A DNA stretch of 56,243 bases from a virus (taxonomy: Duplodnaviria > Caudoviricetes). The translations under genes and the position numbers were made by a program. How positions within the stretch are numbered: the stretch's first letter is position 1; the number at the start of each line of letters is the position of its first letter. The stretch is from positions 1 through 56,243 of IMG/VR virus record IMGVR_UViG_3300009184_000053. One strand, written 5' to 3'. Of the stretch, positions 2,945-36,162 are shown piece after piece. The notes below the pieces were generated by a model that worked only from the letters and a program-made list of their open reading frames with translations, did not search any database and was not told where the DNA came from.

Positions 2945-3709
2945 ATGGAATTTATAAACCAAGTTAAACAACTAAAGGAACAAACTAAATCACCTGAGGT
3001 TAGACAAATTTGCGAGGCATACCTAAGTGGTAAAGGTGGAATATCCCCTGAAGCTATAACTAATGTGTTAAATGAGAATTTTGTTACTCCTTTATCTAGC
3101 CCAAGTATATTAAACTACAGGGATGCAGTACAAAGGGAAGAAGCTGAAACCTCTAAAAGAGCAGCTGACTCATTAATGGCATCTTGGGATGGTGTAAAAT
3201 CAGCTCCTTTAAATAACTCAGGAACATACTTAATAAAAGAAAGTCAAAACAATGACAATTCTATAATTAGAGAAATAGCTAGTGCTGCTTCTGGAGATTC
3301 CTCTGCTAACTCTTTTGTCGAAGCTCAGGGATTAAAAAAATTAGGTGTTTTAGAATCTATCTCAAAGATAAAAAGCTCTTCGATTTATGAGCATCATCCA
3401 GTTAGAGTTTTATGTGAAAAATATTCAAATCTAATTGAAAATAAAAATATCCCAGAATTCGCTTTAATTCATAACTTTATAGCAGAAGCTTCTAATTTTA
3501 AATGGGATTTTACAGTAGGTGAAGTTTTAACTAAATTAAACAGAAGAGTTGATAAGTATTCTAGAGAAATAGAGGTTTCTAAAGTTTTAGAGAATGTTAA
3601 ATCAAGTGGAAGTTCTAGCTTTTATTCTGAATTAACTGAATCTTTAAATTCTTGGTTAATATCTGAAAGTAAATCTTCTTGTATATTATCTAAAAGTATT
3701 TCTAAATAG
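2945..3709 (+). CDS. N-terminal part of a large putative prohead core/internal protein (interrupted by TAG 3707-3709)
   Basis: In frame with 3734..5740; the intervening codons (AFNSVVRN) are open. Confidence 0.65.
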   Translation: MEFINQVKQLKEQTKSPEVRQICEAYLSGKGGISPEAITNVLNENFVTPLSSPSILNYRDAVQREEAETSKRAADSLMASWDGVKSAPLNNSGTYLIKESQNNDNSIIREIASAASGDSSANSFVEAQGLKKLGVLESISKIKSSSIYEHHPVRVLCEKYSNLIENKNIPEFALIHNFIAEASNFKWDFTVGEVLTKLNRRVDKYSREIEVSKVLENVKSSGSSSFYSELTESLNSWLISESKSSCILSKSISK

Positions 3710-21500: not shown

Positions 21501-23474
21501 ATGCCTAGAGTAAATGATAATATATTGAATGAACAAATGGTGTTCATCTTGGAGAAACAAGAGCATATACTTGAATCCAAAAAATCTGCAGGGAACGAAT
21601 ATGTTCTTGAAGGAATTGCAGCTGTATTTGGTAAAGAGAACAATAATCATAGAATCTATGAGGAGAAGGAATATCTTCCTCATTTAGATTATTTAAAGGA
21701 TAAGATATCTCAGAAAAGATTGGTTGGTGAATTGGATCATCCTGAAAAATTCGACGTTTCACTTAAGAACATTTCTCATTTAATAACAGATCTTACCCAT
21801 GATAAAGGTGATAGAACTCTAAAAATAAAGGTTAAGCTTTTGGATACTCCTGCTGGAGATATCGCAAAAAAACTTGTTGATGCTGGTGTTCCTTTATCTA
21901 TATCATCAAGAGCAGCAGGTTCTGTTGGTAACGATAAGAAGGTTCAGATTAAAAAAATCTTCACTTATGATTTAGTTGCTGATCCAGGATTTCAAAATGC
22001 ACAGCTTGAAAGAGTCTATGAAAGTGCAGGATTTAGCACAGAAGAATATGAAAACTACAGATCTAATAGCGTAATTAACAGCTTAATTTGCTTAAATGAG
22101 TCTTTAGGAATAGAAAATGAATCTTCTTTGAAGATATATAAAGTCGATAACAACGAAGAGTTTTACAATATTATAAATAAAACAGACAATAAAAATAAGA
22201 AAGCCCTTATGGAGAATAACGAATTTGTTACCGCGGACGAGCTTAATAAATATTCAGTTTTCTTGAAAAAAGAAATGGATGCTATGAAAGCTACTATCGT
22301 GGATTTAAAAGAACAAAAGGAAGCCCTTAGAGAATCAGTAGAATCTAGTAATGATACCTACGAATTAGAATCAAGGGTTGCTAAACTTGAAAAGTATTCT
22401 GAATACTTAGCAGAGAATTTGGAGAATGCTATTAAATATGGCGAATATCTATCAGAAAATCTAGATAACAGTATCACTTATAGCAAGTACTTAGCAGAGA
22501 ATCTTGATAAGACAATTTCTTATTCTAAATACTTAGCAGAGAATGTTGATAGATCAATATCTTATTCTGAGTATGTTGCTGAGAATGTTGATAATAACAT
22601 AGAATACTCTAAGTATATCGCGGAAAAATTAGATCAGAATATCCAATATTCTGAGTACTTAGCTGAGAATGTAGATAAGGGAATTTCTTATTCTGAATAC
22701 TTAGCAGAGAACTTGGATAAAGGTATTGCTTATAGCGAATATTTAGCTGAAAAAGTAAACAACGGTATTGAATATACTGAATATGTAGCAGAAAATCTAA
22801 ACAGAGGTATAGAGTATTCTGACTATTTAGCAGAAAATTTAAACAAAGGAATTGATTATTCTGAGTACTTAGCAGAAAAACTTAATAGATCAATCTCTTA
22901 TAGCGAGTATATCGCAGAATCAATGGAAAGAAACGCACCTTATAGCGACCAAACAAGCTTAAGAGAAAGTGCGGAATTCACAGCAGACTCTGATCTTAAC
23001 GAATCAGGATTTGCAGGAAGCTATGATGATCTTTCTTTTAAAATCGACTCTCTTATTGAATCAGTTCAAACCAAAAAAACTGAGGAGAATATAAACGAAG
23101 CTGCTAACAGATTTGCAGCGACAGCCAAAAAACAAAAGGCAGCAGAATCACTTAACGAATCAGAGAACATTAACGAAACGGGTATCAAGTTTATAGACGA
23201 AATCCCTGAAGAGTATGCTCAGGTTTGGGAATCTTTATCTGAAGGACACAAGCAATCAATTATTGCTCAATCAAGCTTCTACAGATTGGATACTCCATAC
23301 CAGATCAAAAACTTCTGGTCAACACGTCAACTTGGAACTAGCCCAGTTGGTCTTCAAAAACTTCATGAAAGTGAAGAGGTTTCAAACAACCCATCTCAAG
23401 CAACACAAGCTTATTCATCAGATTACATGAATTACATAGCTTCTGCTTTAGAGAAAAAGTTTACAAACAGATAA
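21501..23474 (+). CDS. gp21: prohead protease (T4 gp21-like) fused to scaffold/core protein (gp22-like)
   Basis: LEGI...N.NHRIY, GELDHP, ISHLI, LLDTPAG, ISSRAAGS, TYDLVADPGF; C-terminal coiled-coil repeats; lies directly before the MCP. Confidence 0.9.
   Translation: MPRVNDNILNEQMVFILEKQEHILESKKSAGNEYVLEGIAAVFGKENNNHRIYEEKEYLPHLDYLKDKISQKRLVGELDHPEKFDVSLKNISHLITDLTHDKGDRTLKIKVKLLDTPAGDIAKKLVDAGVPLSISSRAAGSVGNDKKVQIKKIFTYDLVADPGFQNAQLERVYESAGFSTEEYENYRSNSVINSLICLNESLGIENESSLKIYKVDNNEEFYNIINKTDNKNKKALMENNEFVTADELNKYSVFLKKEMDAMKATIVDLKEQKEALRESVESSNDTYELESRVAKLEKYSEYLAENLENAIKYGEYLSENLDNSITYSKYLAENLDKTISYSKYLAENVDRSISYSEYVAENVDNNIEYSKYIAEKLDQNIQYSEYLAENVDKGISYSEYLAENLDKGIAYSEYLAEKVNNGIEYTEYVAENLNRGIEYSDYLAENLNKGIDYSEYLAEKLNRSISYSEYIAESMERNAPYSDQTSLRESAEFTADSDLNESGFAGSYDDLSFKIDSLIESVQTKKTEENINEAANRFAATAKKQKAAESLNESENINETGIKFIDEIPEEYAQVWESLSEGHKQSIIAQSSFYRLDTPYQIKNFWSTRQLGTSPVGLQKLHESEEVSNNPSQATQAYSSDYMNYIASALEKKFTNR
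22209..23474 (+). CDS. putative nested in-frame scaffold protein (internal start MENNEFVTADELN)
   Basis: GATATATA at 22133 and an A-rich leader precede an in-frame ATG at the protease/scaffold boundary. Confidence 0.55.
   Translation: MENNEFVTADELNKYSVFLKKEMDAMKATIVDLKEQKEALRESVESSNDTYELESRVAKLEKYSEYLAENLENAIKYGEYLSENLDNSITYSKYLAENLDKTISYSKYLAENVDRSISYSEYVAENVDNNIEYSKYIAEKLDQNIQYSEYLAENVDKGISYSEYLAENLDKGIAYSEYLAEKVNNGIEYTEYVAENLNRGIEYSDYLAENLNKGIDYSEYLAEKLNRSISYSEYIAESMERNAPYSDQTSLRESAEFTADSDLNESGFAGSYDDLSFKIDSLIESVQTKKTEENINEAANRFAATAKKQKAAESLNESENINETGIKFIDEIPEEYAQVWESLSEGHKQSIIAQSSFYRLDTPYQIKNFWSTRQLGTSPVGLQKLHESEEVSNNPSQATQAYSSDYMNYIASALEKKFTNR
22395..22919 (+). repeat. coding tandem repeat, 13 x 42 bp (14 aa: YSEYLAENLDKGIx)
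   Basis: Counted directly; exact 42-nt period. Confidence 0.9.
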
Positions 23475-23500: not shown

Positions 23501-25249
23501 ATGAAATTGATTAACGAACAAGAAATCTATAGTACTTGGGCGCCTCTAATCGAGAGCAAAGCAGGTATTACAGATGAAAGCAAAAAAGGATGGTTGACTA
23601 AATATTGTCACTACCATTCATTAAACGAATCTGCTGGTGCTTACAACACTTTAGGTGTAGTAAACGGTATGGGTGCTGTACAAGCTCCTTTATTCCCAGG
23701 CGCTAGCTACGGTATTGGTACTGCTTCTACAAGTGCTAATGCTAACTTCTACAACACTGGATATCAAGGTTCAGGCGATAAATTCCCTTCATTACTTCCG
23801 TTGGCTATTCAGGTAGCTGCGAAGACTGTTGGTTTTGATATCGTTCCTGTTATCCCAATGTCTGGTCCTACTGGTATCTTATCATACCTTGACTACGTAT
23901 ACGCTGGTGGTAAAATCGCTGGTGCTACTTCAGGTACTTCAGGTGCTGATTTAGCTGATTCTCCTACAATGATTAAGTTCTCTGCAGGTACAACTGCTGC
24001 TTCTTCAACTGCAGTAAGCACAGGTATCACTGGTTTCAATAGTGCTGCAGTAGGTACAACTTACTATATCGGTGCTACTGGTACTGTTACTTCTTATAGT
24101 CAACATATCACTGCTAAATTCGTAGGTTTATCAAGAATAGATGGTAGTCCAATTTACCAAATCACAAACATCGGTGACGGTTGGAACGTTGCTTCTGTAG
24201 TAGTTGCTGGATCTTTAGTATCTTCATCTACAACAGTTAGTACTGCAAACGCAGTTGGTGTTGTCACTTCAACAGCCTCTCTAGTTAAAGGTCTTGAAGA
24301 TCATATCCAAGGTTTCTCTGGTGCTGGTTTCAACAACGATCAAAACTGGCAAGGACCATACGTTGATGGTACTAAGACTTACAACCCAATGTTAAGAGCG
24401 GTTGGAGAATCTACATACTACAACTCAATGGGTCTTTCGACTTTCACTAAGTTCGTAGAAGCTGAGACTTTCCAAGTTGCTGCTTCTGTTACAACTGAGC
24501 AAATCCAAGATTTGAATAAGCAATTCGGTATCGATGTGATTTCAATGATTGAAAACGCTCTTGTTAACGAGGTTTCTCAAGCTATCAACAAGCACATCCT
24601 TGCTAGAGCATTCGCTTTAGGTTGGTCTAACCACATCACATTTAACAACGTTGATGGACAAAACTTGAACTTAAACTTGTCTACTTCAGCTGCTTCAGCT
24701 ACTGCTGCTTACGTAGGTAAAGAGGACACTGGAGTTTCTTTAGCAGTTCCTGGTCAAATCGCAACAAACAACTTTGAGAACCAATCAACTTTACAAAGAA
24801 GATTATTCTCTAGAATCCTTGCTGCTGCTAACGTAGTTGCTAACAGAGGTAGAAGAGGACCTGCTAACTTCATCGTTACTAACTCTCAAATCGCTTCTGC
24901 TTTACAAGACATTAGCCAGTTCACATTCGCTCCATTCTCTAACACTTTGACTCAAAATAACGGTACATTATACCCTGTAGGTTCACTTGCTGGTATGACT
25001 GTTTACGTAGATCAGAACATGAACTACGCTGATACTAGAATCTGTGTTGGTAGAAAAGGTGGTGATGACGAACCAGGTCTTAAGTTTATGCCTTACATGA
25101 TGGCTGAATCAATTCAGACTATCTCTGAAGGTACAATGTCTCCTAAGATTGCAGTTAAATCTAGATACGCTCTAGTTGAAGCTGGCTTCTTACCAGAAAC
25201 AATGTATCTTACGTTCTTCGTAAACATCCCATCAGGTGGTATAGTTTAA
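23501..25249 (+). CDS. gp23: major capsid protein (T4 gp23-like)
   Basis: DIVPVIPMSGPTG, T.EQIQDL..QFGID, NEVSQAINK.IL, RRGPANFIV, G.LAG..VYVD, FMPY, PKIAVKSRYAL; strong codon bias. Confidence 0.95.
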   Translation: MKLINEQEIYSTWAPLIESKAGITDESKKGWLTKYCHYHSLNESAGAYNTLGVVNGMGAVQAPLFPGASYGIGTASTSANANFYNTGYQGSGDKFPSLLPLAIQVAAKTVGFDIVPVIPMSGPTGILSYLDYVYAGGKIAGATSGTSGADLADSPTMIKFSAGTTAASSTAVSTGITGFNSAAVGTTYYIGATGTVTSYSQHITAKFVGLSRIDGSPIYQITNIGDGWNVASVVVAGSLVSSSTTVSTANAVGVVTSTASLVKGLEDHIQGFSGAGFNNDQNWQGPYVDGTKTYNPMLRAVGESTYYNSMGLSTFTKFVEAETFQVAASVTTEQIQDLNKQFGIDVISMIENALVNEVSQAINKHILARAFALGWSNHITFNNVDGQNLNLNLSTSAASATAAYVGKEDTGVSLAVPGQIATNNFENQSTLQRRLFSRILAAANVVANRGRRGPANFIVTNSQIASALQDISQFTFAPFSNTLTQNNGTLYPVGSLAGMTVYVDQNMNYADTRICVGRKGGDDEPGLKFMPYMMAESIQTISEGTMSPKIAVKSRYALVEAGFLPETMYLTFFVNIPSGGIV

Positions 25250-25267
25250 TCATTAAACTAAACATAC

Positions 25268-25297
25268 AAAAAACCCTAAGGCGACTTAGGGTTTTTT
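25268..25297 (+). terminator. rho-independent terminator
   Basis: AAAAAACCCTAAG-GCGA-CTTAGGGTTTTTT (GNRA loop). Confidence 0.9.
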
Positions 25298-25354
25298 ATT
25301 TGCCCTTTTTAAAAGGATTTTCTATTTTATTGCTTAGATAAAAAACTAGAAAAG

Positions 25355-25390: not shown

Positions 25391-26533
25391 ATGAAAAATA
25401 TCCCCTCTTTTAACGAGTTTAAAAAATACGATCATCTTTTAGAATCTTCTGATGATTTATTAAGGAAAGAATTTAATGAATTAGAGAGATTAGAAATTTC
25501 TTATAACCTAAACGAGGGAAGTGCTTTAGATTCTATAAAAAGTTCTTTATCTAAATTCTTTTTGGGTCCTTTGTCTAAAACTGGTATGATAGACGAGACA
25601 AGAAAGATTATGATTGATCTAGAGATTGACCTAATAGAACAGAAGTACTCTATCGAGAAAGAAATAGAAAATATTAACGACCAAATAAGTGGTTTATCAA
25701 GATCATCAGAGAAAGAGAAATATACAGCTTTAGTTAAGGATAAGGAATCTAAAATTAAGCAGATTGAAACCTATATTAAATCGCAAAGATTAAAGATAAA
25801 AAAGTGTCAGGAACACATAAGAAATCTTATAGGTAAAAGTGAAAGAAGAAGAGAATATTACGAAACTGGCAGAGCGGAGGATGAAATAACAATAGCAGAA
25901 TTTGAATATCAATTAGCTAAATCAGAAGCAGATTCTTCTGAAATTAGAAAATATGAAGAAAAAATAGCTGCTGCTAGAAAAGAAGCTGCCGAGAAAGCTG
26001 AGAAATTTGAGGATGATTTAAAAGCAAGCTCTGAGATAGAATCTGAAGAGCCTGTCGAGCGAGTGGATGCGGAGAAGGAGAAGAAGAAAGTTTCTTCTAG
26101 AAAAGGATCTGATATTATAAAAAGAAAAAATGATTTGCAGAAAGAGATCATAGATTTGAAATCAGATCTTGAAAGGAAGCTTAAGACCCTACAAAAAAGA
26201 ATAGAAAAAGGAAACGGTAAAGCATCAGTTTCATACGTTAATAAGATGAGAATTCAACTTCTTGAATTAACATCTACACTTGATGCCAAAGTTAATCTTT
26301 TAAATGCTTTTAAGGAATTAGGGGGAAGCGAGAAAGAAATAACTTCTAAGGTTGCTAAAGAGACTGAGTTTTCTAAATTAGCAAGTAAGATTAATAGCGG
26401 AATAGTAGATGGCCAGGATGCTAATACAGGAACTAAAAAAATAATAGGATCTATTTTTTCAACGAATTCTAAAAATGGAACTGGTGAGGTAAAGATTGAA
26501 AAATTAAAAGATGCTATTAAGAAAATTCAATAG
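25391..26533 (+). CDS. coiled-coil putative internal head protein, paralog of 26561..27496
   Basis: N-terminus MKNIPSFNEF, LNE/G site; shares IG..R..YY/W....A....I.E..Y..AK...DSS with the next ORF. Confidence 0.7.
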   Translation: MKNIPSFNEFKKYDHLLESSDDLLRKEFNELERLEISYNLNEGSALDSIKSSLSKFFLGPLSKTGMIDETRKIMIDLEIDLIEQKYSIEKEIENINDQISGLSRSSEKEKYTALVKDKESKIKQIETYIKSQRLKIKKCQEHIRNLIGKSERRREYYETGRAEDEITIAEFEYQLAKSEADSSEIRKYEEKIAAARKEAAEKAEKFEDDLKASSEIESEEPVERVDAEKEKKKVSSRKGSDIIKRKNDLQKEIIDLKSDLERKLKTLQKRIEKGNGKASVSYVNKMRIQLLELTSTLDAKVNLLNAFKELGGSEKEITSKVAKETEFSKLASKINSGIVDGQDANTGTKKIIGSIFSTNSKNGTGEVKIEKLKDAIKKIQ

Positions 26534-26560
26534 AGTTATAAATTAAGTACCCAATATATA

Positions 26561-27496: not shown

Positions 27497-27761
27497 ATTC
27501 GACGAATTTTTAATCAATGAAGCTGATGGCGTTCAAACTAAAATAGAGAAGCTTAAGGTTAAGCTTTCTGAAAATTTTGATGCCATAAAGGAAGCCAAGA
27601 AAATGAAGAAGCCAGGTGATCCTGCTAGTGAGATAACTAGTCTAACCAAACAGGCGGATTTGTATGCAGAGATTTCACCTGTCATGAAATCTCTTATTGC
27701 TGCACTAAAAGAAAAAGAAGCAGATAAAGCGGCAAACCCGGGAAAGCCTACATTATATTAA
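27489..27761 (+). CDS. small putative internal head protein
   Basis: MLKFDEFLINE/AD resembles the T4 IP capsid-targeting sequence. Confidence 0.65.
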   Translation: MLKFDEFLINEADGVQTKIEKLKVKLSENFDAIKEAKKMKKPGDPASEITSLTKQADLYAEISPVMKSLIAALKEKEADKAANPGKPTLY

Positions 27762-27775
27762 AAAATAAAGATAAG

Positions 27776-30280
27776 ATGAGTAAGAACCCCTATGTTCACA
27801 ATCCCATTGCGGAAAGACTTCTAGGAGATTATAATCAAAGACTTTTTGAAAACGAGAAGGTTGAACCTGTTATCTCTAAAATATGTGATCAGATTTTAAA
27901 TATCTTTAAGATTTTAAATTTCGATCTTGCTAAAAAGAGAGATAGAAATCCTGATGTTATGAGGGATAAACTATCGGATATCTCCACATCTAAAACGGTA
28001 AAATCATTAACTGGTAAAATTGTTGACTATGCAGACGATGCAGACGTAAGCGATTCAAGATTTGCTGAGGTTAAAAGGCTTTATATTGAAAGTTTAAAGA
28101 AATTTACAGAGGCATTAAATAGAGCATCTGAAATAAGTAAAGGAAAAAGTGATGGATTTATATTAAAGAAATTTAAGATTGATCCAACTAAAATTCAAAC
28201 AACTCTTGACTATGTTGCAAAACAAGCAGAGGAGGAAGAGGAGAAAATGTTAAAAGCTGAAGAGGAAGCTTTATCTGAATCATTATTTATTAGCGAGTCA
28301 ATTTTTACTGGACATCAGGGAAGGGTTAAGAATCTTAAAAAACTTTTAGCTAATCTTATAACTTCAGCGGAGGGAAAGGATCAGAAAGGTGGATATGGTA
28401 GAGATTGGAAGAGGGTGTTCATAGAACTAGATCAGAGAAGACAATCTTTAGATTACAATGGTGGGGGTGAGAAGAGCAAGAAGATCTTAGAGGATTTGGA
28501 AAAGCAGGTTGAAAAATTTCAGGATGAATTTAATAAAGCTTTGGTTAGCGCATCTAACAGATCACTTCAACAACTAGAAACAGACGAGGAAGTTTATACA
28601 TCATATGTTGACGTTGCTGATTTGAATCGTCAGGCTTTAGATGATTTAACTAGAGCACAAACCCAGTATTCTATTGCGGTAAAAGAAATTAAAGACGGAC
28701 ACGAATCAAGAGAAACCGAAATTAGCAAAAACCTATTCCCTTTAAAGAGAGGTGATTCTGATTCTGATAAAAAATTAAAAGACAGCGGTTTAATATATTC
28801 TATACAGACTGCAATCTGTAATGGCATTCCTTCTGTCGGTAGATTGCTCAAAGCAAAAAAAGGTTACAATGGAAAATTTGGACCTTCTACTCAGGCAGCG
28901 ATTATGACTATTCAGAAAGTTTCTGGCAATAAAAACACAAACGGTGAGATAGATAAATCCCTTTTGGATTCTATCCTTCTATCGGATTGGGTTTCATACA
29001 AAGACAAAGTTGCGATAAGAAATGCTATAGATAAAATAAAATCTCAAGTGAACGAAAGCTCTCGTTTTGGTAATCATCTAATAGGTACAAGAGAATTTAT
29101 ATTTAATTTGAACGAGGAAAAAATTTTTATAAACAACTCAGAGTTTGAAAAGGAATTAGAGACACAATACAAATCGATTGCGGGTAATGTTCAGATGCCA
29201 CAATTTGACGAATCTGATCCTATTGACAATAAACCTACAGGAGCTAGCAACTTATCTAAAAAACTAAGATCTGTATACAGTATAAAAATAGAGGCAGATG
29301 ATTTTATTAAATCCGACGGAAGCCTTAAATCTTCATATACCCAAGATTTTATATCTGCATGGAATAATGCAATTGACGAGGCTCAGCCTGTTGATGACTT
29401 TTCCTATTTTTATTCTATGGGTGGTGTATATAATATTAATCTTTCATCCACCTCTCTTAAAACACCTTGCAACTGGACAAAATGGGCTGAAGTGAGAAAG
29501 CTTAAAGATCTAAGCGATGAAGACTGTCTAGATTTTATTACAAACTATTTAAATGGATGGAAAACTTTCGGTCTGATTAGACCAGAATGGAGATATTCAG
29601 GAATAAAAGAATTGAATAAAAAAATAGGGGAAGACGCAAAAAACTCAAGAGCTTACGATAAGGTATATTCTGCTTGTAGTGACAATGGAACTGTTCCATA
29701 CATCGCTTATAATTTGCTAAGAGGTCCAGTTGCTCAATCGTTTAAATCTGTTTTGCAATTAAATGAAAAATCTCCAGATCTAGAAGATACTGATTTTTCT
29801 ATGCTAAACAATCTTATAGTTATGATTGCTAATACCGTAACTTTTGATGGAGATAAATTCGTTAGCTGTATTAAATGGATACATGATAATATTATGGGGG
29901 AGTCAACTTGTAATAGATTAGTTAAAGACTCGATAACATCTTCTATCGATGATGTTGATTCTGGCGAAATAATTCTTTTAGGATTCGAAAGTTCTAAAAT
30001 AATAGTTTCAACCAAAGAAGATCTTTTAGACAGATTGAATACTGAAGAGGTTAAAGATCCATCTAGAATGCTTTCTGGATTTTCCCCATTGATCAAAATT
30101 TCATCAGGAAAAGATCCTGAGGATGCTGGGGTTAAAGAGATTTTAGGTAAGAACCTATATTACATAGCTGCTGATATTTACCCTTCAATAGCAGCTCACG
30201 TTAAAAGAATAAACTCTACATCATTTTCGGAGATACCCCAGGTTTCTCCTTTTAAATGCGTAGATTCGGATAATCTATAA
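27776..30280 (+). CDS. large putative internal virion protein with peptidoglycan-binding (PG_binding_1-like) domain
   Basis: LKRGD...IQ.AI...NGKFGPSTQAAIMTIQK.SG...NGEID at about 28742-28975; LFE, ISE, VNE and LNE sites. Confidence 0.7.
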   Translation: MSKNPYVHNPIAERLLGDYNQRLFENEKVEPVISKICDQILNIFKILNFDLAKKRDRNPDVMRDKLSDISTSKTVKSLTGKIVDYADDADVSDSRFAEVKRLYIESLKKFTEALNRASEISKGKSDGFILKKFKIDPTKIQTTLDYVAKQAEEEEEKMLKAEEEALSESLFISESIFTGHQGRVKNLKKLLANLITSAEGKDQKGGYGRDWKRVFIELDQRRQSLDYNGGGEKSKKILEDLEKQVEKFQDEFNKALVSASNRSLQQLETDEEVYTSYVDVADLNRQALDDLTRAQTQYSIAVKEIKDGHESRETEISKNLFPLKRGDSDSDKKLKDSGLIYSIQTAICNGIPSVGRLLKAKKGYNGKFGPSTQAAIMTIQKVSGNKNTNGEIDKSLLDSILLSDWVSYKDKVAIRNAIDKIKSQVNESSRFGNHLIGTREFIFNLNEEKIFINNSEFEKELETQYKSIAGNVQMPQFDESDPIDNKPTGASNLSKKLRSVYSIKIEADDFIKSDGSLKSSYTQDFISAWNNAIDEAQPVDDFSYFYSMGGVYNINLSSTSLKTPCNWTKWAEVRKLKDLSDEDCLDFITNYLNGWKTFGLIRPEWRYSGIKELNKKIGEDAKNSRAYDKVYSACSDNGTVPYIAYNLLRGPVAQSFKSVLQLNEKSPDLEDTDFSMLNNLIVMIANTVTFDGDKFVSCIKWIHDNIMGESTCNRLVKDSITSSIDDVDSGEIILLGFESSKIIVSTKEDLLDRLNTEEVKDPSRMLSGFSPLIKISSGKDPEDAGVKEILGKNLYYIAADIYPSIAAHVKRINSTSFSEIPQVSPFKCVDSDNL

Positions 30281-30281
30281 G

Positions 30282-30289
30282 GATATATA
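30282..30289 (+). promoter_or_regulatory. putative late promoter GATATATA
   Basis: Recurrent motif. Confidence 0.6.
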
Positions 30290-30309
30290 AAAAACAAAAG
30301 AATTAAGAT

Positions 30310-31044
30310 ATGGGAAATCTTTTACCGTTTGATACTTATTCATCCATACAGAAAAACAGTCAGTCTATAAATGAAAGTTTAAGATCAGGTGACTTTTCTT
30401 TTGAATCTTTGAATGAGAAGGAGCTTTTAGAGTTAGACTACATGGCAGAGACATCAGGTCTTTGCACATTTGATTTGATCTGCATGCAAGAAGGCGTGGG
30501 ATATGATAAATTAGGACGTCCTATGCAATATCAGCCAGATTATGAAATTGAAGGCCATTTATATGAGGATGAAACTGGATGGCTAGCTAAGGAAGTAAAC
30601 AAGCAAACAGCTGAGATCAAACCTAAAGTAACTGAAGCTCTTAAAGGACTTCAATTGAAGCCGACACCTGCGGTAGATTCACTTATTGGTATGTATATTA
30701 CGGGCCTTAAAAAGGCTTTAGCTAAAAATCCAAAAACAACAGGAAAACTTTTTGATATAGCTAATACACTACCTGAGCATAAAAAGGTTGTTAAAATATT
30801 ATCTAATAGCTATTCTAAAATAATTAAGGATAATGATGCTAGATTGCAATCATCTTTGTTTAGTGAAGACAATAAGGCAACAGCGGGTAATTTAGCAACT
30901 GTTCAAAATGCTATAAAAGAAGTTGTTTTCAATCTTAAAGAAGAGGGAAATAAACATGGCGAGAAAAATAAAATATCTCAATCTGTGGTTAATCCTAAAC
31001 CTTGGACGGAAGCAGATTTAAAAGCAGCAGAAGCTAAAGCTTAA
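30310..31044 (+). CDS. paralog family member 1: acidic propeptide plus basic helical domain
   Basis: GLCTFDLICMQEGVGYD shared with the next ORF; C-terminal FSEDN motif. Confidence 0.75.
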   Translation: MGNLLPFDTYSSIQKNSQSINESLRSGDFSFESLNEKELLELDYMAETSGLCTFDLICMQEGVGYDKLGRPMQYQPDYEIEGHLYEDETGWLAKEVNKQTAEIKPKVTEALKGLQLKPTPAVDSLIGMYITGLKKALAKNPKTTGKLFDIANTLPEHKKVVKILSNSYSKIIKDNDARLQSSLFSEDNKATAGNLATVQNAIKEVVFNLKEEGNKHGEKNKISQSVVNPKPWTEADLKAAEAKA

Positions 31045-31076
31045 TAATTTAAATATAAAAATAAAATAAACGAACG

Positions 31077-31811
31077 ATGAAAAATCTTTTATCTTTTGGT
31101 AGTTATGAACCAGGAAAATCCAATTCACACAGTGGAGTGAATAGCAGGATTAACGAATCTAACCTTTTTGAAAGCGTAAAGAATATAGACTTTACAAATC
31201 TTAATGAACAAGAAAAAGCTGATCTTGATAGATTGGCGGAAGAGCATGGAATTTGCACATTTGATTTAATCTGCATGAGAGAAGGCATAGGTTATGATTC
31301 ATACGGTCAGCCTTTAAACGAGGAAGAGATTGATGCTGAATATGAGTCAATTGACGAGGGATTCCTTGGTGGGCTTCTTAAGGTAGTTAAAAATGTTATA
31401 CCTAAAGCTAAATCTATTATTGCTAAGGCTAAACCTCTATTCCAGAAGGGTGGAAAGATTAGCCAGGGACTTCAAGGTGCTTTTGGTAAAGTACAAGCTG
31501 GTATAGCTAAATTAGCAGGCAAATCAAAAACTTTACAGGGATTAATAAAAAATGCAGATTCTAATCCGGAATTAGCTCAATCCGCTGATGCTTCACAAGA
31601 AGGATTAGGTAAAGTTCTTGCAGATCTTAAAGCTAACGGAGCTAAAGCTTTCTTTAGTCCTGATAATGCTGCTACGGTTCAAAATGTTGCTAGCTTATTT
31701 AATAGCACTTCTCAAACAGCTAGTGAAGTTAAAAAAGCTGCTCCTAAATTAGCAGAACCTGAAGACGCTGACGATGATGACGATGATGACGATGATGAAT
31801 CTGGAATATAA
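31077..31811 (+). CDS. paralog family member 2: acidic propeptide plus cationic amphipathic domain, poly-Asp tail
   Basis: GICTFDLICMREGIGYD; IDE/GFLGGLLKVVKNVIPKAK; FSPDN. Confidence 0.75.
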   Translation: MKNLLSFGSYEPGKSNSHSGVNSRINESNLFESVKNIDFTNLNEQEKADLDRLAEEHGICTFDLICMREGIGYDSYGQPLNEEEIDAEYESIDEGFLGGLLKVVKNVIPKAKSIIAKAKPLFQKGGKISQGLQGAFGKVQAGIAKLAGKSKTLQGLIKNADSNPELAQSADASQEGLGKVLADLKANGAKAFFSPDNAATVQNVASLFNSTSQTASEVKKAAPKLAEPEDADDDDDDDDDESGI

Positions 31812-31833
31812 TAAAAATTAAAAATTCTAACAA

Positions 31834-32889
31834 ATGAGGAATATAGTATCCTATAGTAATATTTTTGAATCAAAAGAGGTTAAGAAAAAATCACCGCTTT
31901 TTGAAACCTGCTCATCTTTCAATTTGGACGAGGAGTTAACTGTTGAACAGCTTAGAATGATTGACGAGCTAGTTATTACAGAGGGCAGAGGATATTTAGA
32001 TCTAGTTGCAATAAAGGAAGGATGGGACGTAGAAGATATAAGCGAGGAGTATGATTATCCAGAAGACATGACTTTTGCAGAATTTATAGAGAAAGAATTT
32101 GAAGGATTAGACGAGGAGTCTTTTGCACAATGTCTTGTTGACGATCTTGGTCTAGATGATTTAAATGAGGATGAGCTAAAAGAGTTTTGCAGTTTATTAA
32201 ATGAATCTAACTTTTTTGAAGATCTCGATGAGTCTGAAATCTATGAGCTTAATGAGGGATTCTTTAAAAAAATAGGCCAAGCTTTTAAAAAAGTTGGACA
32301 GGGTATAGCTAAGGGTGTTAAATCTGTAGGACAAGGCATTAAAAAAGTAGCTCAGAATATCAAGAAGATAAGCTTAAAGGATATAGGTAAGGCTTTAAAG
32401 AAAGCTCTTCCCATTATAATAATGGTTGCTTCTATTGCTCTAACCTGTGTTGGTGTTCCTGCAGGTCTTGCTATAGCATCAAAATCTCTTGGCTTTTTAA
32501 GTAAAGGAATGAAGGTTTTACAAACTGCTCAAAAGGTTCAGAAAGCAGGAAAATTAGTATCCACGTTAAATAAAGCTAAAAAAGCTATTAAAGGACTAAA
32601 GATGGTTAAAAAGATATCATCTTTAGCTAATAAAACTAAAACGCTTAGAAAGACTTTAGATATAGTAGCTAAAGGAGCTAAAAAAATTAAACAGGATTTT
32701 GCAAAAAGAGGAGCAGAAGCTCTTGAAAGCCCGGACAATCAGCAAATAGCTGGAACCATGGCGGCAACATATCATGCTGCTACAGAAGGTGCAGATGCGA
32801 TGGCAAACGAAATGAAGGAGGTTCCTGATGATCCAGCAGTTGCAGCAAAAATGGATGCAGAGGCAGATCAAGCATCACAGCAAGCTTAA
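31834..32889 (+). CDS. paralog family member 3: acidic propeptide plus cationic amphipathic and hydrophobic domain
   Basis: LDLVAIKEGWD; LNE/GFFKKIGQAFKKVGQGIAKG; hydrophobic LPIIIMVASIALTCVGVPAGLAIA; ESPDN. Confidence 0.75.
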   Translation: MRNIVSYSNIFESKEVKKKSPLFETCSSFNLDEELTVEQLRMIDELVITEGRGYLDLVAIKEGWDVEDISEEYDYPEDMTFAEFIEKEFEGLDEESFAQCLVDDLGLDDLNEDELKEFCSLLNESNFFEDLDESEIYELNEGFFKKIGQAFKKVGQGIAKGVKSVGQGIKKVAQNIKKISLKDIGKALKKALPIIIMVASIALTCVGVPAGLAIASKSLGFLSKGMKVLQTAQKVQKAGKLVSTLNKAKKAIKGLKMVKKISSLANKTKTLRKTLDIVAKGAKKIKQDFAKRGAEALESPDNQQIAGTMAATYHAATEGADAMANEMKEVPDDPAVAAKMDAEADQASQQA

Positions 32890-32892
32890 TTG

Positions 32893-32900
32893 GATATATA
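32893..32900 (+). promoter_or_regulatory. putative late promoter GATATATA
   Basis: Recurrent motif. Confidence 0.6.
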
Positions 32901-32936
32901 AAAAAAATATATAAAACAAAATAAACAATTTTAAAA

Positions 32937-34088
32937 ATGAAAAGAATATTAACATTCTCAGGATTTGAAGACATGTACGAATCCTATGGATTTACCGATG
33001 ATATGTTAGAATACGATAGCGAAATATTCGGAGAAGATGACACTGTAGAAGATATTTTCGAATTTTGGGATAACATTGAAGCCAATCATATTAACGAAGA
33101 TACAAAAGCAGTTCCTGGCAAGAAAACACCTGGTGGTGTCCATATGGATGCTGAATATTATAAATTGTTTGAAAGCGTAAGTGTTGTTACTATTAATGGT
33201 CAAACATATATCATAGGTATACCTAAAAAAGGTGCTTCTGAAAGTGTTGATAAAATAAGCAAAAGACCTGCATTTGCAAAGAGCGGTTTATCTAAAGCTT
33301 TCTCTTGGATAAAAGATGTGGCAACTGCAGAGAAAGCTAAAAAAGCTCTTGTCTTCACAGCTAAAGCAGTAGTACTGGCACCTTTAGCTGTAGCATCTGG
33401 TATAATCGGAGCAGCATCTAGTTTGATTAAAAACGTTGCTAAGGGAGCTGTTAAAGTAACAATGAGTGCACTCCATGGTATGGGCCACATTACAAAATGG
33501 GCTGGCACTAAAGCATACAGTGCTGCAACAGCAGGATTTAATGCGATATACGATGGCTTTGTTCAAGCCGGTGCTAAAGCATGTAAAGCTATATCGGGAG
33601 CTATGAAGGGCGTTAAAAAGGGAGCAATTGCAATAGGTGGATTTGTTGCTGCATTAGGAAAAACTGCTGCCATGGTTACTGGGAGCGCAATGAAATTTGT
33701 TCTTGCTGTTGGTGTGGGTTTAGGTTTAGTAGCATGGAAGGGATTAAAATCTCTAGCTGGTGCTGCTTCTTCAGCTGCTAAATGGGTTTATGGAAAAAGT
33801 AAAGAAGCCGCACAATATATGGCAAATTCAATTAAATCAGGTCTTACGTCTGTTGTTAATGGAGCTAAAAGTGTTGCAGCAAGTGGATATAATCATGCTA
33901 AAAATGTAGCTTCTAAAGGATGGCAAGGAGCTAAAAATGTTGGATCTGCAATTTCTTCAGGAGTAGGATCTACTGTGAAATTTGCTCAAGAATACTATAA
34001 AAAAGGAAATGATGTAGTTAATAAATTATTTGGTAAATTATTTGAAAGTGATGGATATGAATTTGGTACTATAGAAATTTTCTCATAA
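32937..34088 (+). CDS. Ala/Gly/Lys-rich amphipathic putative membrane-inserting virion protein
   Basis: MKRILTFSGF N-terminus, acidic first 60 aa, then amphipathic helices and hydrophobic segments. Confidence 0.7.
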   Translation: MKRILTFSGFEDMYESYGFTDDMLEYDSEIFGEDDTVEDIFEFWDNIEANHINEDTKAVPGKKTPGGVHMDAEYYKLFESVSVVTINGQTYIIGIPKKGASESVDKISKRPAFAKSGLSKAFSWIKDVATAEKAKKALVFTAKAVVLAPLAVASGIIGAASSLIKNVAKGAVKVTMSALHGMGHITKWAGTKAYSAATAGFNAIYDGFVQAGAKACKAISGAMKGVKKGAIAIGGFVAALGKTAAMVTGSAMKFVLAVGVGLGLVAWKGLKSLAGAASSAAKWVYGKSKEAAQYMANSIKSGLTSVVNGAKSVAASGYNHAKNVASKGWQGAKNVGSAISSGVGSTVKFAQEYYKKGNDVVNKLFGKLFESDGYEFGTIEIFS

Positions 34089-34111: not shown

Positions 34112-34140
34112 AAAAGACCAGGAACCCCTGGTCTTTTTTT
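34112..34140 (+). terminator. rho-independent terminator
   Basis: AAAAGACCAGG-AACC-CCTGGTCTTTT plus a T run. Confidence 0.88.
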
Positions 34141-34189: not shown

Positions 34190-34753
34190 ATGGTATATGT
34201 TTTTGAGGGTGCTAGGAATTCGGGTAAAACCTATCTTTCTAAGCACATCTCCGATAAATTTAGAATCTCTAGGTTTCAATTTGATTTTGGCAATCATTTT
34301 AATTTATTAGATCTTAAAAGCAAGGACAATAAAGAGGCCCATTCATTCTCTATGGGTAAAGAGCTTATGCTAATGCAGCTTTCTAAAGATCTACTAAATG
34401 CTCCTGATTTTATACATGATAGAGGAATACTCACTGTTTTAGCTTGGGGGATTTCTGAGAATAGAATATCCAAGGATGATGTCGTTAAACAAATAGAATA
34501 TATTAGGGATAATCACCTTTTAGATAATCTCACTATAGTTTATGTGTATGGAGATAATCCTGATAAATCTGACAGAAATAAAGATCAATGGGATTATGCA
34601 GATGGAAATAACTTAGAAAGAGATGCTTTTGAATTTGTGATTTCAAAGTTCAAAGAGCTTGGAGCTAAAAAAATATACAGACTTAAAAATAACTTTGATC
34701 TTGGATCTATCTTATCACTTGAATCATTTTTTGAATATTTACTTTTTAACTAA
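34190..34753 (+). CDS. P-loop nucleoside monophosphate (thymidylate-kinase-like) kinase
   Basis: VFEGARNSGKT P-loop and IHDR motif. Confidence 0.75.
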   Translation: MVYVFEGARNSGKTYLSKHISDKFRISRFQFDFGNHFNLLDLKSKDNKEAHSFSMGKELMLMQLSKDLLNAPDFIHDRGILTVLAWGISENRISKDDVVKQIEYIRDNHLLDNLTIVYVYGDNPDKSDRNKDQWDYADGNNLERDAFEFVISKFKELGAKKIYRLKNNFDLGSILSLESFFEYLLFN

Positions 34754-36162
34754 TGTGTGGAATCCTACTTACAACTAGGGCTGAAAAGATGCCTGAACTT
34801 CTTGACTCTATAAGTCATAGAGGTATAGAAATGTCTTTTAAGAATTTAAATGATGTCACTCTCTGCCATCATAGGTTGCCAATTCAGACACTCGATGGAG
34901 ATGAGTGGGCACAGCCTATAGAAATATCAGATGGTGTATACCTTATGTTTAATGGTGAGATTTTTAATTACGACCAAGATAAATTCTCTTCTGACACTGA
35001 GTATCTTTGTAATTTATTTTCCAATTATAGAGGTGGGAATATAGAATTTTTTGCTGCTGTTTATACACCACATATTCAAACTTGGGACGGATTCTGGGCA
35101 ATTGTGATTTATGATTCCAAAACTGGAAATGTTATAGCTTTTACAGATCCGCTTGGTAAGAAGTGCCTTTATAAAAATGAGCTTGGAGAGATCTGTTCAG
35201 AGATGAAGGGCATAATGACAGCTCAGAGCAATATAGATCACTCGTATATCAGTTCTGTTAGAAAATGGGGATATAATAAAGACGAGAGAACACCGTACCT
35301 TAACATTAAAAGGCTCCTTCCGAATAACATATATTCGTATAATATTGGATCCCCTCTTTTTAATCAGATTTTTCCCAAGTATTATAGAGCATGGGAAACC
35401 CCCATTAAAGAGCTAATAGGAGCCGATTACGAGACTCATATGAATTGGCTTTGGGATAAAATGATTGAGAGCGTAAAACACCGTCTAGTGTCAAAAAACT
35501 ATCCTATATCGGTGTTAGTGTCTGGGGGATTAGATTCTTCTATCATAGCAGCTATTTTAAAAGAACTAAAAGCCAAGGTTACCTGGTTTTCTATAGAGAA
35601 TGGGGAAACCCCTTACGTTCAAGCTTTAAGTGATCATTTGAAAACCCCTATACACTTCCTAGAATATAATATGGATCCAAATAAATTGGCAGAGATTTAT
35701 TGTGATTGGAACGAAGGTCCAATTGATTTAGGATCGGTTATACCCCAATATCATCTTTTCGAAGCGGTTAAAAAAGAGTCAGGTTATAGAATAGTTGTTA
35801 GCGGAGATGGATCCGATGAGCTTTTTGGCGGATATTCGAGAATCCATGAATATGATTCTCAGCAATCTGATATATTCGAGGAACTTACATTTTATCATCT
35901 TCCGAGATTGGATAAGATGTCGATGGCTCACACATTGGAACTAAGAAATCCTTTCCTTAATTTAGAGATAGTTAGATTTGCGCTACATCTACCTATAGAG
36001 TGGAGAACTGATAAAAAAATACTTAAGGACACATTTGGACCTTTGCTTCCCTCGATAATTATAGATCGAAAAAAAGAAGCCCTTAAAAATCCAGAAATCA
36101 AGGAGGACAAGCTTAAATATAGACAAAAAGCGGTTAATCTTTTCCTAGATTTAATGAAGTAA
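34753..36162 (+). CDS. asnB: asparagine synthetase B-like glutamine amidotransferase
   Basis: MCGI, HRG, HHRL, QP, FNGEIFNY, SDTE, SGGLDSS, SGDGSDELFGGY, RLDKMSMAH.LE.R.PFL. Confidence 0.9.
   Translation: MCGILLTTRAEKMPELLDSISHRGIEMSFKNLNDVTLCHHRLPIQTLDGDEWAQPIEISDGVYLMFNGEIFNYDQDKFSSDTEYLCNLFSNYRGGNIEFFAAVYTPHIQTWDGFWAIVIYDSKTGNVIAFTDPLGKKCLYKNELGEICSEMKGIMTAQSNIDHSYISSVRKWGYNKDERTPYLNIKRLLPNNIYSYNIGSPLFNQIFPKYYRAWETPIKELIGADYETHMNWLWDKMIESVKHRLVSKNYPISVLVSGGLDSSIIAAILKELKAKVTWFSIENGETPYVQALSDHLKTPIHFLEYNMDPNKLAEIYCDWNEGPIDLGSVIPQYHLFEAVKKESGYRIVVSGDGSDELFGGYSRIHEYDSQQSDIFEELTFYHLPRLDKMSMAHTLELRNPFLNLEIVRFALHLPIEWRTDKKILKDTFGPLLPSIIIDRKKEALKNPEIKEDKLKYRQKAVNLFLDLMK

What the first reader, a model, noticed from the sequence alone, without database searches (positions are those of the whole stretch)
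30310..34088. Zymogen-like membrane-active proteins: acidic propeptide, protease site, then an antimicrobial-peptide-like cationic helix
Seen: three paralogs share (C/Y)x(F/L)DL(I/V)xxxEGxxxD in the N-terminal part and S(P/E)DN near the C-terminus, and a fourth protein has the same charge layout. Each has a strongly acidic N-terminal part, a (I/L)xE site, and then an abrupt switch to Lys-rich amphipathic sequence. Examples: IDE/GFLGGLLKVVKNVIPKAKSIIAKAKPLF (from 31359) and LNE/GFFKKIGQAFKKVGQGIAKGVKSVGQGIKKVAQNIKK followed by a 24-aa hydrophobic helix (from 32257). Established: cecropin/magainin/dermaseptin-type peptides have this composition, and several such peptides are made with neutralising acidic propieces; T4 gp21 cuts after (L/I)xE. 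Inference: the phage makes charge-masked membrane-disrupting proteins, arms them only inside the prohead, and ejects them to breach the envelope or kill/depolarise the host. I know of no described system like this. It is the best candidate for a novel system in the window.
Basis: partly seen in the sequence, partly recalled or inferred. Interest (0 to 1): 0.85.

Follow-up and report, generated by a model that had tools for sequence, protein, structure and literature searches.

The report
Protease-processed cationic phage head proteins
Next to the capsid genes of an uncultured giant phage lie genes for proteins whose acidic front half is probably cut off by the head protease, leaving lysine-rich, partly membrane-seeking proteins in the capsid; this is a new sequence family of a kind of phage head cargo that is already known.

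Summary
ORFs 30310-31044, 31077-31811 and 31834-32889 are paralogs. Together with the unrelated ORF 32937-34088 they have an acidic N-terminal part that switches to a Lys-rich part. In 23 of 26 sequences examined the switch falls exactly after an [L/I/M]xE triplet, and within 2 residues in the other 3. The genes end an 8-gene unit just downstream of a gp21-type protease and a gp23-type capsid gene. [LI]xE is enriched beyond composition in the P2 and P3 pro-regions and in the protease's own repeat tail.

My best reading: these are prohead-protease-processed internal head or ejection proteins. The front part combines a targeting leader with an acidic, scaffold-like propeptide. The mature part is cationic, amphipathic in P2 and P3, and carries hydrophobic segments in P3 and P4.

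This is not unprecedented. By my calculation the experimentally processed SPN3US proteins gp53 and gp54 show the same acidic-pro/basic-mature layout. SPN3US gp47 is a processed ejection protein with an N-terminal transmembrane helix (PMC5694885).

No homology to PF12699 or any other library family was found. Membrane activity remains untested, and DNA binding is an equally simple rival. Killing the host like an antimicrobial peptide is unlikely. The scan has noted similar leader or propeptide systems on other DNA.

The parts
21501..23474 (+). Prohead protease (657 aa): gp21/S77-type N-domain plus a C-terminal tail of about 17 tandem 14-residue units, each holding a (L/V/I)AE triplet
   Evidence: phrog_207 E 1.1e-37; PF03420 32.6 bits against a cut-off of 27. 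Sequence. [LI]xE count in residues 251-657: 23 against 7.9 expected, reached by 0 of 5000 shuffles.
23501..25249 (+). gp23-type major capsid protein
   Evidence: PF07068 E 1.6e-39. Best phage-record match is LR756500 at 44.1% identity; other matches are Lak, Tenacibaculum, Flavobacterium, Chryseobacterium and Sphingomonas phages.
25266..25299 (.). Terminator-like hairpin after the capsid gene; marks the start of the 8-gene unit 25391-34088
   Evidence: 15-pair stem; pattern match only
25391..26533 (+). 380-aa Lys/Glu-rich helical protein with the same type of N-terminal leader (MKNIPSFNEF...LLE); scaffold-like
   Evidence: Only a sub-threshold SMC-like coiled-coil hit.
30310..31044 (+). P1: leader 1-22 (ends INE), acidic pro-region to LYE86 (nt 30310-30567), mildly basic body 87-204 containing FSEDN
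   Evidence: This is the weakest member: amphipathicity is not significant.
31077..31358 (+). P2 leader (1-27, ends INE) plus acidic pro-region to IDE94 (net -14, pI 4.25, 6 [LI]xE against 2.2 expected)
   Evidence: AF2 folds residues 31-80 at pLDDT 70-76.
31359..31757 (+). P2 predicted mature protein 95-227 (net +11, pI 10.05, K19 R0). Cationic amphipathic helix 95-125; conserved C-domain with FSPDN.
31758..31811 (+). P2 acidic tail after LAE227 (net -12); a possible C-terminal propeptide
   Evidence: Precedent: T4 Alt is cut at both ends by gp21 (PMC9026906, passage).
31834..32256 (+). P3 leader plus acidic pro-region 1-141 (net -33; 14 [LI]xE against 4.9 expected)
32257..32403 (+). P3 cationic amphipathic helix 142-190, directly after LNE141
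   Evidence: Hydrophobic moment 0.55 over 45 aa, reached by 0 of 10000 shuffles. 33 cationic-amphipathic 18-mers; the next-best ORF in the window has 14.
32404..32481 (+). P3 uncharged hydrophobic segment 191-216 with a central G-(V/I)-P-x-G kink, conserved in all 7 sequences of the P3 clade
   Evidence: Kyte-Doolittle 19-mer maximum 2.32
32482..32889 (+). P3 Lys-rich helical region, conserved C-domain (ESPDN) and an acidic tail after MKE329
32937..34088 (+). P4: an unrelated ORFan with the same leader type (MKRILTFSGF...MYE), an acidic 1-54 (net -15), an Ala/Gly/Lys-rich body 80-370 (net +30) with hydrophobic segments at 137-164 and 229-267, and LFE370 before a short acidic tail
   Evidence: (1 hit only, 99% identical). 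Weak phrog_1272 tape-measure hit, E 9.6e-5. Absent from the syntenic relative L005.
34112..34137 (+). Terminator-like hairpin (11-pair stem plus T run) closing the unit
   Evidence: pattern match only

Best explanation
P1-P3 form a new paralog family, and the unrelated P4 shares their layout. All four are internal head (ejection) proteins of a T4-like giant phage, made as precursors.

Inferred pathway:
1. A short N-terminal leader (M-K/R-N-I/L-...-F/Y..F/Y, ending in (L/I/V)xE) and the acidic, helical pro-region load the protein into the prohead core. They also keep the cationic and hydrophobic part soluble and neutral.
2. The gp21-type protease cuts after (L/I/M)xE at several places in the pro-region. 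The last cut falls exactly at the acid-to-base switch. In P2, P3 and P4 a further cut may come before an acidic C-terminal tail.
3. The small acidic fragments leave the head.
4. The Lys-rich mature proteins (about 118-291 aa, pI about 9.5-10.4) stay with the DNA and leave with it at infection.

I think it most likely that the mature forms with hydrophobic segments (P3, P4) and exposed amphipathic helices (P2, P3) bind or insert into the host envelope to help genome delivery. Their lysines would also offset DNA charge inside the head.

Shown here: the anatomy, its conservation, the motif enrichment and the gene context. Inferred, not shown: packaging, cleavage, ejection and any membrane or DNA activity.
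For: Context: the genes end an 8-gene unit directly after an S77/gp21-type protease and a gp23-type capsid gene, bracketed by terminator-like hairpins. The order is kept in a relative (L005).

Site at the switch: the cumulative-charge minimum falls exactly after [LIM]xE in 23 of 26 sequences and within 2 residues in the other 3. The site varies (IDE, INE, LNE, MNE, IYE, LYE) while the flanks diverge to about 25% identity.

Motif enrichment beyond composition:
- P3 pro-region: 14 against 4.9 expected, 0 of 5000 shuffles.
- P2 pro-region: 6 against 2.2, P 0.008.
- Protease tail: 23 against 7.9.
- Controls (ligase, asparagine synthase, both portals, the 877-aa ORF): not enriched.
- P3 mature region: 0 sites in 188 aa.

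Family: the most conserved N-domain motif, C(M/L/I)xEG, is itself a site consensus. 23 proteins match at E<=1e-3 in 1.84 billion representatives, and the true members all keep the layout.

Leader: the same leader type occurs on the unrelated P4 and on the 380-aa ORF.

Amphipathic and hydrophobic features.

Precedent: SPN3US gp53 and gp54, processed at AQE-125 and AQE-124 and present at more than 600 copies per virion (PMC5694885, passages), have pro/mature net charges of -15/+7 and -30/+14 by my calculation. SPN3US gp47 is a processed ejection protein with an N-terminal TM helix. T4 internal proteins are basic, carry a cleaved targeting sequence and bind DNA at low salt (PMC9026906).
Against: - There are no protein data. 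No cultured phage carries the family: tblastn with P2 and with P3 found nothing in 50,697 phage records.
- The protease's cutting rule is inferred from T4 and from the repeats in its own tail, not measured.
- AF2 models are weak (mean pLDDT 47 and 57), and the cut site and cationic helix are the least confident parts. No masking contact is shown.
- P1 has no significant amphipathic helix, and its motif enrichment is marginal (P 0.067). P4 is also marginal (P 0.074).
- In the distant clade the gene is not next to capsid or protease genes within the contigs held.
- A 26-residue hydrophobic segment could send P3 to the host membrane during synthesis instead of into the capsid.
Confidence: 0.5

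Rival explanations
1. Pure DNA-side role. The mature Lys-rich proteins are T4-IP-like or phiKZ-inner-body-like proteins that neutralise and organise the packaged DNA. They have no function at the membrane, and the acidic pro-region is simply a scaffold or targeting part.
For: T4 internal proteins are basic, present at about 300 copies each, and bind DNA at low salt (PMC9026906). Only lysines of internal proteins were seen to contact DNA phosphates (PMC3012670, section 6). The mature parts are almost all Lys with few Arg (K36/R2, K19/R0, K38/R1). SPN3US gp53 and gp54 share the charge layout. P1 and P2 have no hydrophobic segment.
Against: DNA binding does not call for a hydrophobic face with exact 100-degree periodicity. 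Nor does it call for the conserved uncharged 26-residue segment of the P3 clade, the Gly/Pro-rich hydrophobic stretches of the distant clade, or the two hydrophobic segments of P4.
Confidence: 0.28
2. One reading: the mature products act like antimicrobial peptides that breach the envelope or kill or depolarise the host.
For: The composition and hydrophobic moment of P3 142-190 and P2 95-125 fit cationic helical peptides. An acidic pro-piece is present. A phage-encoded cationic peptide that disrupts the outer membrane is known, though in lysis (bioRxiv 10.1101/515445, abstract). The HMM search also pulled out a non-phage protein with a signal peptide and five acidic-spacer/FFKK-type repeats (P0021).
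Against: The predicted products are 118-291 aa with no further sites. Killing or lasting depolarisation of the host at entry would block the phage's own replication (reasoning). P1 is not amphipathic. Nothing shows activity.
Confidence: 0.07
3. Assembly-only role. The acidic parts build the prohead core, and the hydrophobic or cationic parts tether the prohead to the inner membrane. Cleavage at the switch releases the prohead, and the mature parts stay behind in the cell.
For: In SPN3US protease mutants, proheads stay bound to the inner membrane, and cleavage is thought to be needed for release (PMC10052503, introduction). Both flanks of the P3 hydrophobic segment are strongly positive, and the segment has a central Gly-Pro kink. 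This fits a one-sided, re-entrant anchor.
Against: P1 and P2 have no anchor. Conserved C-terminal domains and possible C-terminal cuts suggest a retained, functional product. In T4 the membrane link is the portal (background knowledge, recalled).
Confidence: 0.12
4. Lysis accessory, acting like the phiKT gp28 outer-membrane disruptor.
For: Cationic amphipathic sequence. In one distant-clade contig an endolysin-like gene lies about 5 kb upstream.
Against: The genes sit in the head unit. The leader and pro-region carry protease sites, and that protease is active inside proheads. No holin or endolysin lies next to them in the window.
Confidence: 0.03

Closest known systems
Salmonella phage SPN3US gp53/gp54 ('paralog family A', phiKZ_IP PF12699; phiKZ inner-body proteins)
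   Same: Tandem paralogs with conserved N-termini. Long N-terminal propeptides with extra internal sites, removed by a T4-related prohead protease after Glu; high-copy head or ejection proteins (PMC5694885, passages). By my calculation the propeptide is acidic, the mature part basic, and the cut lies at the switch.
   Different: No detectable homology: PF12699 finds nothing in the window, and hhalign against gp53 gives probability 2.3%. The site is (L/I/M)xE here and AxE there. The proteins here are smaller and have a Lys-rich amphipathic new N-terminus.
SPN3US gp47
   Same: [quoted passage not shown] This parallels P3 and P4.
   Different: Unrelated sequence. Its propeptide is not acidic by my calculation (+1).
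Phage T4 internal proteins IPI-III and Alt, with their capsid targeting sequence
   Same: A short N-terminal leader ending in the gp21 site, basic mature proteins packed with the DNA and injected, and cuts at both ends in Alt (PMC9026906, PMC3012670, passages).
   Different: The T4 leader is only 10-20 residues (PMC5694885, passage). Here a 55-140-residue acidic pro-region follows the leader. No T4 sequence was compared here.
Adenovirus protein VI (functional analogue only)
   Same: A capsid-internal protein with a membrane-disrupting peptide that stays inactive until it is released during entry (bioRxiv 10.1101/857581 and PMC8310329, abstracts and listing only). That the viral protease cuts the precursor so that the amphipathic helix lies at the new N-terminus is recalled background, not read in these abstracts.
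   Different: Eukaryotic virus with no homology. Its activity is shown there and only guessed here.
Podophage ejection proteins (T7 gp14-16, P22 gp7/16/20)
   Same: Head-internal proteins that leave first and build a trans-envelope conduit (PMC8954989, PMC8402733, PMC8605104, abstracts).
   Different: They are not described there as protease-armed. The phage here has a contractile-tail baseplate.
phiKT gp28 cationic peptide
   Same: A phage-encoded cationic peptide that acts on a membrane (bioRxiv 10.1101/515445, abstract).
   Different: It acts in lysis and is not described as virion cargo or as protease-processed.

Membership tests
phiKZ_IP (PF12699; SPN3US gp53/gp54) | Match to the Pfam model | tested here: not met
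   No Pfam hit at E<=0.01 for P1-P4. The PF12699 six-frame search of the window found nothing at E<=1.
phiKZ_IP (PF12699; SPN3US gp53/gp54) | Profile similarity to a family member | tested here: not met
   hhalign of A4 against SPN3US gp53: probability 2.3%, 22 columns.
phiKZ_IP (PF12699; SPN3US gp53/gp54) | Long acidic propeptide, basic mature part, protease site at the switch, conserved N-termini among tandem paralogs (working likeness, not membership) | tested here: met
   for the window family; for gp53 and gp54
T4-type CTS-bearing internal head proteins | Short shared N-terminal leader ending in the protease motif | tested here: met
   Leaders of P1-P4 and ORF 25391 end in INE, IFE, MYE or LLE (read by eye). 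hhalign aligns P4 to the family only over residues 1-11.
T4-type CTS-bearing internal head proteins | The phage encodes a gp21/S77-type prohead protease | tested here: met
   PF03420 32.6 bits (cut-off 27); phrog_207 E 1.1e-37
T4-type CTS-bearing internal head proteins | Protein present in virions with the leader removed | not testable with these tools
   No proteomic data. No cultured carrier was found.
T4-type CTS-bearing internal head proteins | Sequence homology to T4 IPI-III or Alt | not tested
   No T4 sequence was fetched. The PHROG scan gave no family for P1-P3.
Cationic alpha-helical antimicrobial peptides (cecropin/magainin/dermaseptin type) | Net positive, amphipathic helix | tested here: met
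   Met for P3 142-186 (moment 0.55, 0 of 10000 shuffles) and P2 95-125 (0.45, 23 of 10000). Not met for P1 (1085 of 10000).
Cationic alpha-helical antimicrobial peptides (cecropin/magainin/dermaseptin type) | Released as a short peptide (tens of residues) | tested here: not met
   There are 0-2 further [LI]xE sites in the mature regions. The predicted products are 118, 133, 188 and 291 aa.
Cationic alpha-helical antimicrobial peptides (cecropin/magainin/dermaseptin type) | Permeabilises membranes | not testable with these tools
   Needs liposome or cell assays.
Tape measure protein (phrog_1272), for P4 only | Significant match over the family's length | tested here: inconclusive
   E 9.6e-5 and 21 bits, to positions 623-865 of a 1606-position profile. 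This is an Ala/Gly-rich hydrophobic part, so the likeness may be compositional.
Any solved fold | Structural match of the AF2 models | tested here: inconclusive
   Foldseek against BFVD: 0 hits at E<=1e-3. VIA-align wide search: best Z 7.3, generic helical bundles. The models have low confidence.

The most novel reading that the evidence does not exclude
A tailed phage uses capsid maturation to arm membrane-penetrating proteins. The head protease removes an acidic masking propeptide and exposes a cationic amphipathic helix (plus a hydrophobic hairpin in P3). After ejection this opens or crosses the host envelope. That would make it a bacterial-virus counterpart of adenovirus protein VI and of the lytic peptides of other non-enveloped viruses.
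Probability: 0.2. Interest if true: 0.7.

Novelty: new variant of a known kind. Interest (0 to 1): 0.4.

Why it matters
Giant phages carry large amounts of head cargo whose functions are mostly unknown. This family offers a compact test case with predicted exact cut sites: G95 in P2 and G142 in P3. It has a clear acid/base split and a graded series from no hydrophobic segment (P1, P2) to one (P3) or two (P4).

If the mature forms act on membranes, protease-gated arming of entry proteins would be shown to be shared between tailed phages and non-enveloped animal viruses. If they only bind DNA, the family still shows that the acidic-propeptide/basic-body layout of phiKZ-like head proteins arose independently in a Bacteroidota-type T4-like lineage that uses a T4-type cutting rule.

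Tried and rejected
Library and database searches that gave nothing usable:
- Pfam, PHROGs and NCBIfam scans of P1-P4: no usable family.
- tblastn of P2 and P3 against 50,697 phage records: no match.
- PDB sequence search with the family profile: best E 0.047, a basic calmodulin-binding helix, at chance level.
- ESM Atlas: best score 0.84, below the level that means anything.
- Foldseek (BFVD) and VIA-align wide searches on the AF2 models: nothing above noise.
- LR756500, the closest capsid relative among phage records, has a different gene order after the capsid gene.
- Pfam hits on the repeat protein P0021 are repeat artefacts.

Distant clade: contigs L007-L012 and L014 hold no capsid or protease gene within reach. 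Searches of the 65-kb record with the window's capsid protein and protease domain found nothing. Head linkage is therefore not shown for that clade. Its two upstream neighbours do carry leaders ending in LNE or ILE.

Tools not available: complex prediction, so propeptide-to-mature docking and oligomerisation were not tested; the listing of cluster members, so the source names of P0021 and others are unknown.

Literature: the search for protease-armed, antimicrobial-peptide-like phage head proteins returned 17 papers with 5 or more of the 6 terms. The 10 listed deal with endolysins and phage genomics, not this. Searches found the T4, SPN3US and ejection-protein literature used above. Supplements of PMC5694885 and PMC10052503 were not opened; they may list further processed proteins.

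Full report
WHAT THE WINDOW IS. The window is a 56-kb IMG/VR viral record, estimated at about 20% complete, with 31-44% G+C. It carries T4-like head and baseplate genes:
- two portal-type genes, a head-closure gene, a late sigma factor and baseplate hub and wedge genes;
- a gp21/S77-type prohead protease at 21501-23474 and a gp23-type capsid gene at 23501-25249.

The capsid protein's nearest relatives among 50,697 phage records are an uncultured 462-kb phage (44.1% identity), the Lak megaphages, and phages of Tenacibaculum, Flavobacterium, Chryseobacterium and Sphingomonas. In all, 31 records match, every one below 60% identity. A Bacteroidota-type host is therefore an inference.

THE OBSERVATION. 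P1 (30310-31044), P2 (31077-31811) and P3 (31834-32889) are paralogs: P2 vs P1 E 9.7e-25, P2 vs P3 E 3.3e-4 (alignments). P4 (32937-34088) is not detectably related. hhalign aligns only its first 11 residues to the family, E 0.13.

Charge layouts:
- P3: -33 over residues 1-141, then +28 over 142-329.
- P2: -14 (1-94), +11 (95-227), then -12 (228-244).
- P4: -15 (1-54), +30 (80-370).
- P1: -11 (1-86), +6 (87-204).

Of 52 ORFs in the window, none besides P3 (+34) and P4 (+32) rises more than +16 after its charge minimum.

The helical hydrophobic moment peaks at exactly 100 degrees for P3 142-186 (0.55; reached by 0 of 10000 shuffles) and for P2 95-125 (0.45; 23 of 10000). P1 89-120 is not significant (1085 of 10000). 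P3 has an uncharged segment at 191-216, and P4 has two, at 137-164 and 229-267. P1 and P2 have none.

THE FAMILY. A word-indexed search with the paralog alignment found 11 proteins at E<=0.01 among the 8000 candidates scored. An exhaustive HMM search of 1.84 billion representatives found 23 at E<=1e-3, of which 11 were at E<=1e-10. The weaker hits are long, low-complexity or repeat proteins that I do not count as members.

Members of 183-388 aa fall into four groups: a P1 clade, a P2 clade, a P3 clade and a distant short clade. All share:
- the leader;
- a small acidic N-domain with C(M/L/I)xEG;
- a site of the type (L/I/M)xE;
- a Lys-rich amphipathic stretch;
- a variable hydrophobic or Gly/Pro-rich middle (absent in P1 and P2);
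- a conserved C-terminal helical domain with (F/E)S(P/E)DN or a variant.

I took 26 sequences: 25 family members, which include two near-identical pairs, plus P4. In 23 of them the cumulative-charge minimum falls exactly after [LIM]xE. In the other three (P1, P0015, P4) such a triplet ends one or two residues upstream.

In 12 of 13 pairs within the P2 and P3 clades, the 40 residues after the site are the least conserved of three segments (pro-region, first 40, rest). Examples are 96/70/94, 91/57/80 and 75/30/85 % identity. The same holds in only 1 of 5 pairs from the P1 and distant clades. So in two clades the sequence of the cationic helix drifts while its character is kept. This fits binding to a generic surface, whether membrane or DNA, better than binding to a specific protein partner.

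WHY A PROTEASE SUBSTRATE.
- The protease itself carries about 17 tandem 14-residue units, each with (L/V/I)AE. The same holds in the relative L005.
- [LI]xE exceeds composition-matched shuffles in that tail (23 against 7.9), in the P3 pro-region (14 against 4.9) and in the P2 pro-region (6 against 2.2, P 0.008). It is marginal in P1 (P 0.067) and P4 (P 0.074).
- It is not enriched in the ligase, the asparagine synthase, both portals or the 877-aa ORF.
- The P3 mature region has 0 sites in 188 residues.
- The capsid protein keeps (L/I)xE triplets at matching N-terminal places in the window and in LR756500.

T4 gp21 and the giant-phage proteases cut after Glu (PMC5694885, passage). That T4's rule is (L/I)xE is background knowledge. 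The passage in PMC9026906 mentions a 'LIE-9' site that fits gp21's cleavage logo.

CONTEXT. Terminator-like hairpins at 25266-25299 and 34112-34137 bracket eight genes, 25391-34088, which end with P1-P4 (pattern matches only). A syntenic relative (L004/L005) keeps protease, capsid, four unknown genes, and P1-, P2- and P3-like genes, but it has no P4. P4 has a single, 99%-identical database hit. P4 therefore looks like a recent, unrelated cargo gene that carries the same kind of leader.

In the distant clade the family gene always follows two larger genes whose products start with leaders ending in ILE or LNE. No capsid or protease gene lies within the contigs held.

STRUCTURE. AF2 gives all-helical, low-confidence models: P3 mean pLDDT 47.4, pTM 0.40; P2 mean pLDDT 57.3, pTM 0.51. 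Only the acidic N-domain (P3 21-60, P2 31-80) and the C-domain (P3 281-310, P2 161-210) reach about 65-86. The cut site and the cationic helix are the least confident parts. No fold or sequence match to known structures stands above noise. Whether the pro-region docks on the mature part could not be tested.

COMPARISON WITH WHAT IS KNOWN.
- T4. Internal proteins are basic, present at about 300 copies each, bind DNA at low salt, and are loaded by a 10-residue targeting sequence that gp21 removes. Alt is cut at both ends (PMC9026906, passages). Lysines of internal proteins contact DNA phosphates (PMC3012670, section 6).
- SPN3US paralogs gp53 and gp54. They share identical 15-residue N-termini with extra sites, lose propeptides of 125 and 124 residues at AxE, and are present at more than 600 copies per virion (PMC5694885, passages). 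From the GenBank record I computed net charges of -15/+7 (gp53) and -30/+14 (gp54) for propeptide/mature part, with AQE at the switch. The word 'acidic' does not occur in that paper's main text. The layout is thus present there but not discussed in that paper.
- SPN3US gp47. [quoted passage not shown]

The family here is nonetheless not homologous to PF12699 and uses a T4-type site.

The outside analogues are known to me here only from abstracts:
- adenovirus protein VI, a capsid-internal protein whose membrane-disrupting peptide is released during entry;
- podophage ejection proteins;
- the phiKT gp28 lysis peptide.

MECHANISM AND ODDS. I put about 0.7 on these being protease-processed head cargo. 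Within that, I put roughly one half on a membrane-side role for at least P3 and P4, and the rest on a DNA-side or assembly-only role. A host-killing, peptide-like action is unlikely.

The scan has noted leader or propeptide systems of this general kind in other phage genomes. One of them is a Goslar-like jumbo phage whose pro-regions were compared with SPN3US gp53/gp54. I reached the SPN3US comparison before reading those notes.

VERDICT. This is a new, non-homologous family of a known kind. Interest is moderate.

Noticed in passing
window 7488-9128 and 9138-10757: Two tandem portal-type genes (546 and 539 aa), both matching phrog_213 at E 4e-57 and 4e-63. Both products start MAGF(V/T)D. Tandem portal paralogs are unusual.
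   Followed up: no
window about 22380-23000 (protease residues about 295-500): The protease's C-terminal part is a run of about 17 tandem 14-residue units (type YSEYLAENLDKGIx), each with a (L/V/I)AE triplet. It looks like a built-in, self-destructing scaffold. The same run is present in L005 259-2253.
   Followed up: partly
window 25391, 30310, 31077, 31834, 32937 (N-termini); also 26561, 27489, 36210, 38523: A shared leader of the type M-K/R/G-N/R-I/L-x-x-F/Y-x-x-F/Y, followed by (L/I/V/M)xE, occurs on unrelated proteins of the head unit. Looser versions occur on other ORFs. I read this by eye; no formal motif test was made.
   Followed up: partly
window 2945-3709: A 254-aa unknown protein with 12 [LI]xE triplets against 4.0 expected (0 of 5000 shuffles). 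It may be another heavily processed core or scaffold protein, placed far from the head unit.
   Followed up: no
window 32937-34088: P4 has one database hit only (99% identical) and is missing from the otherwise syntenic relative L005. It appears to be a recently gained cargo gene.
   Followed up: partly
window 34190-36162; L005 11532-13504: A thymidylate-kinase-like gene and an asparagine-synthase-like gene (PF00733, E 1.9e-40) directly follow the head cargo unit. Both are conserved in the relative.
   Followed up: no
window 45726-50654: A 1642-aa protein of no known family with net charge -51, just upstream of the baseplate hub gene.
   Followed up: no
protein P0021 (from; not in the window): A 324-aa protein with a signal-peptide-like start and five repeats of an acidic spacer followed by an FFKKAFKKIKKIA-type stretch. 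It matched the family profile at E 5.5e-10 over 5 stretches. It looks like a secreted multi-copy cationic-peptide precursor, so the likeness is probably convergent. Its source could not be looked up.
   Followed up: partly
window 27776-30280: An 834-aa protein of the head unit with a sub-threshold peptidoglycan-binding hit (PF01471, E 0.0027, 18.3 bits against a cut-off of 23).
   Followed up: no
L008 360-4026; L014 140-4165: In the distant-clade contigs, a cluster of small membrane proteins and an endolysin-like gene (phrog_21890, E 1.3e-12) lies about 5 kb upstream of the family gene.
   Followed up: no
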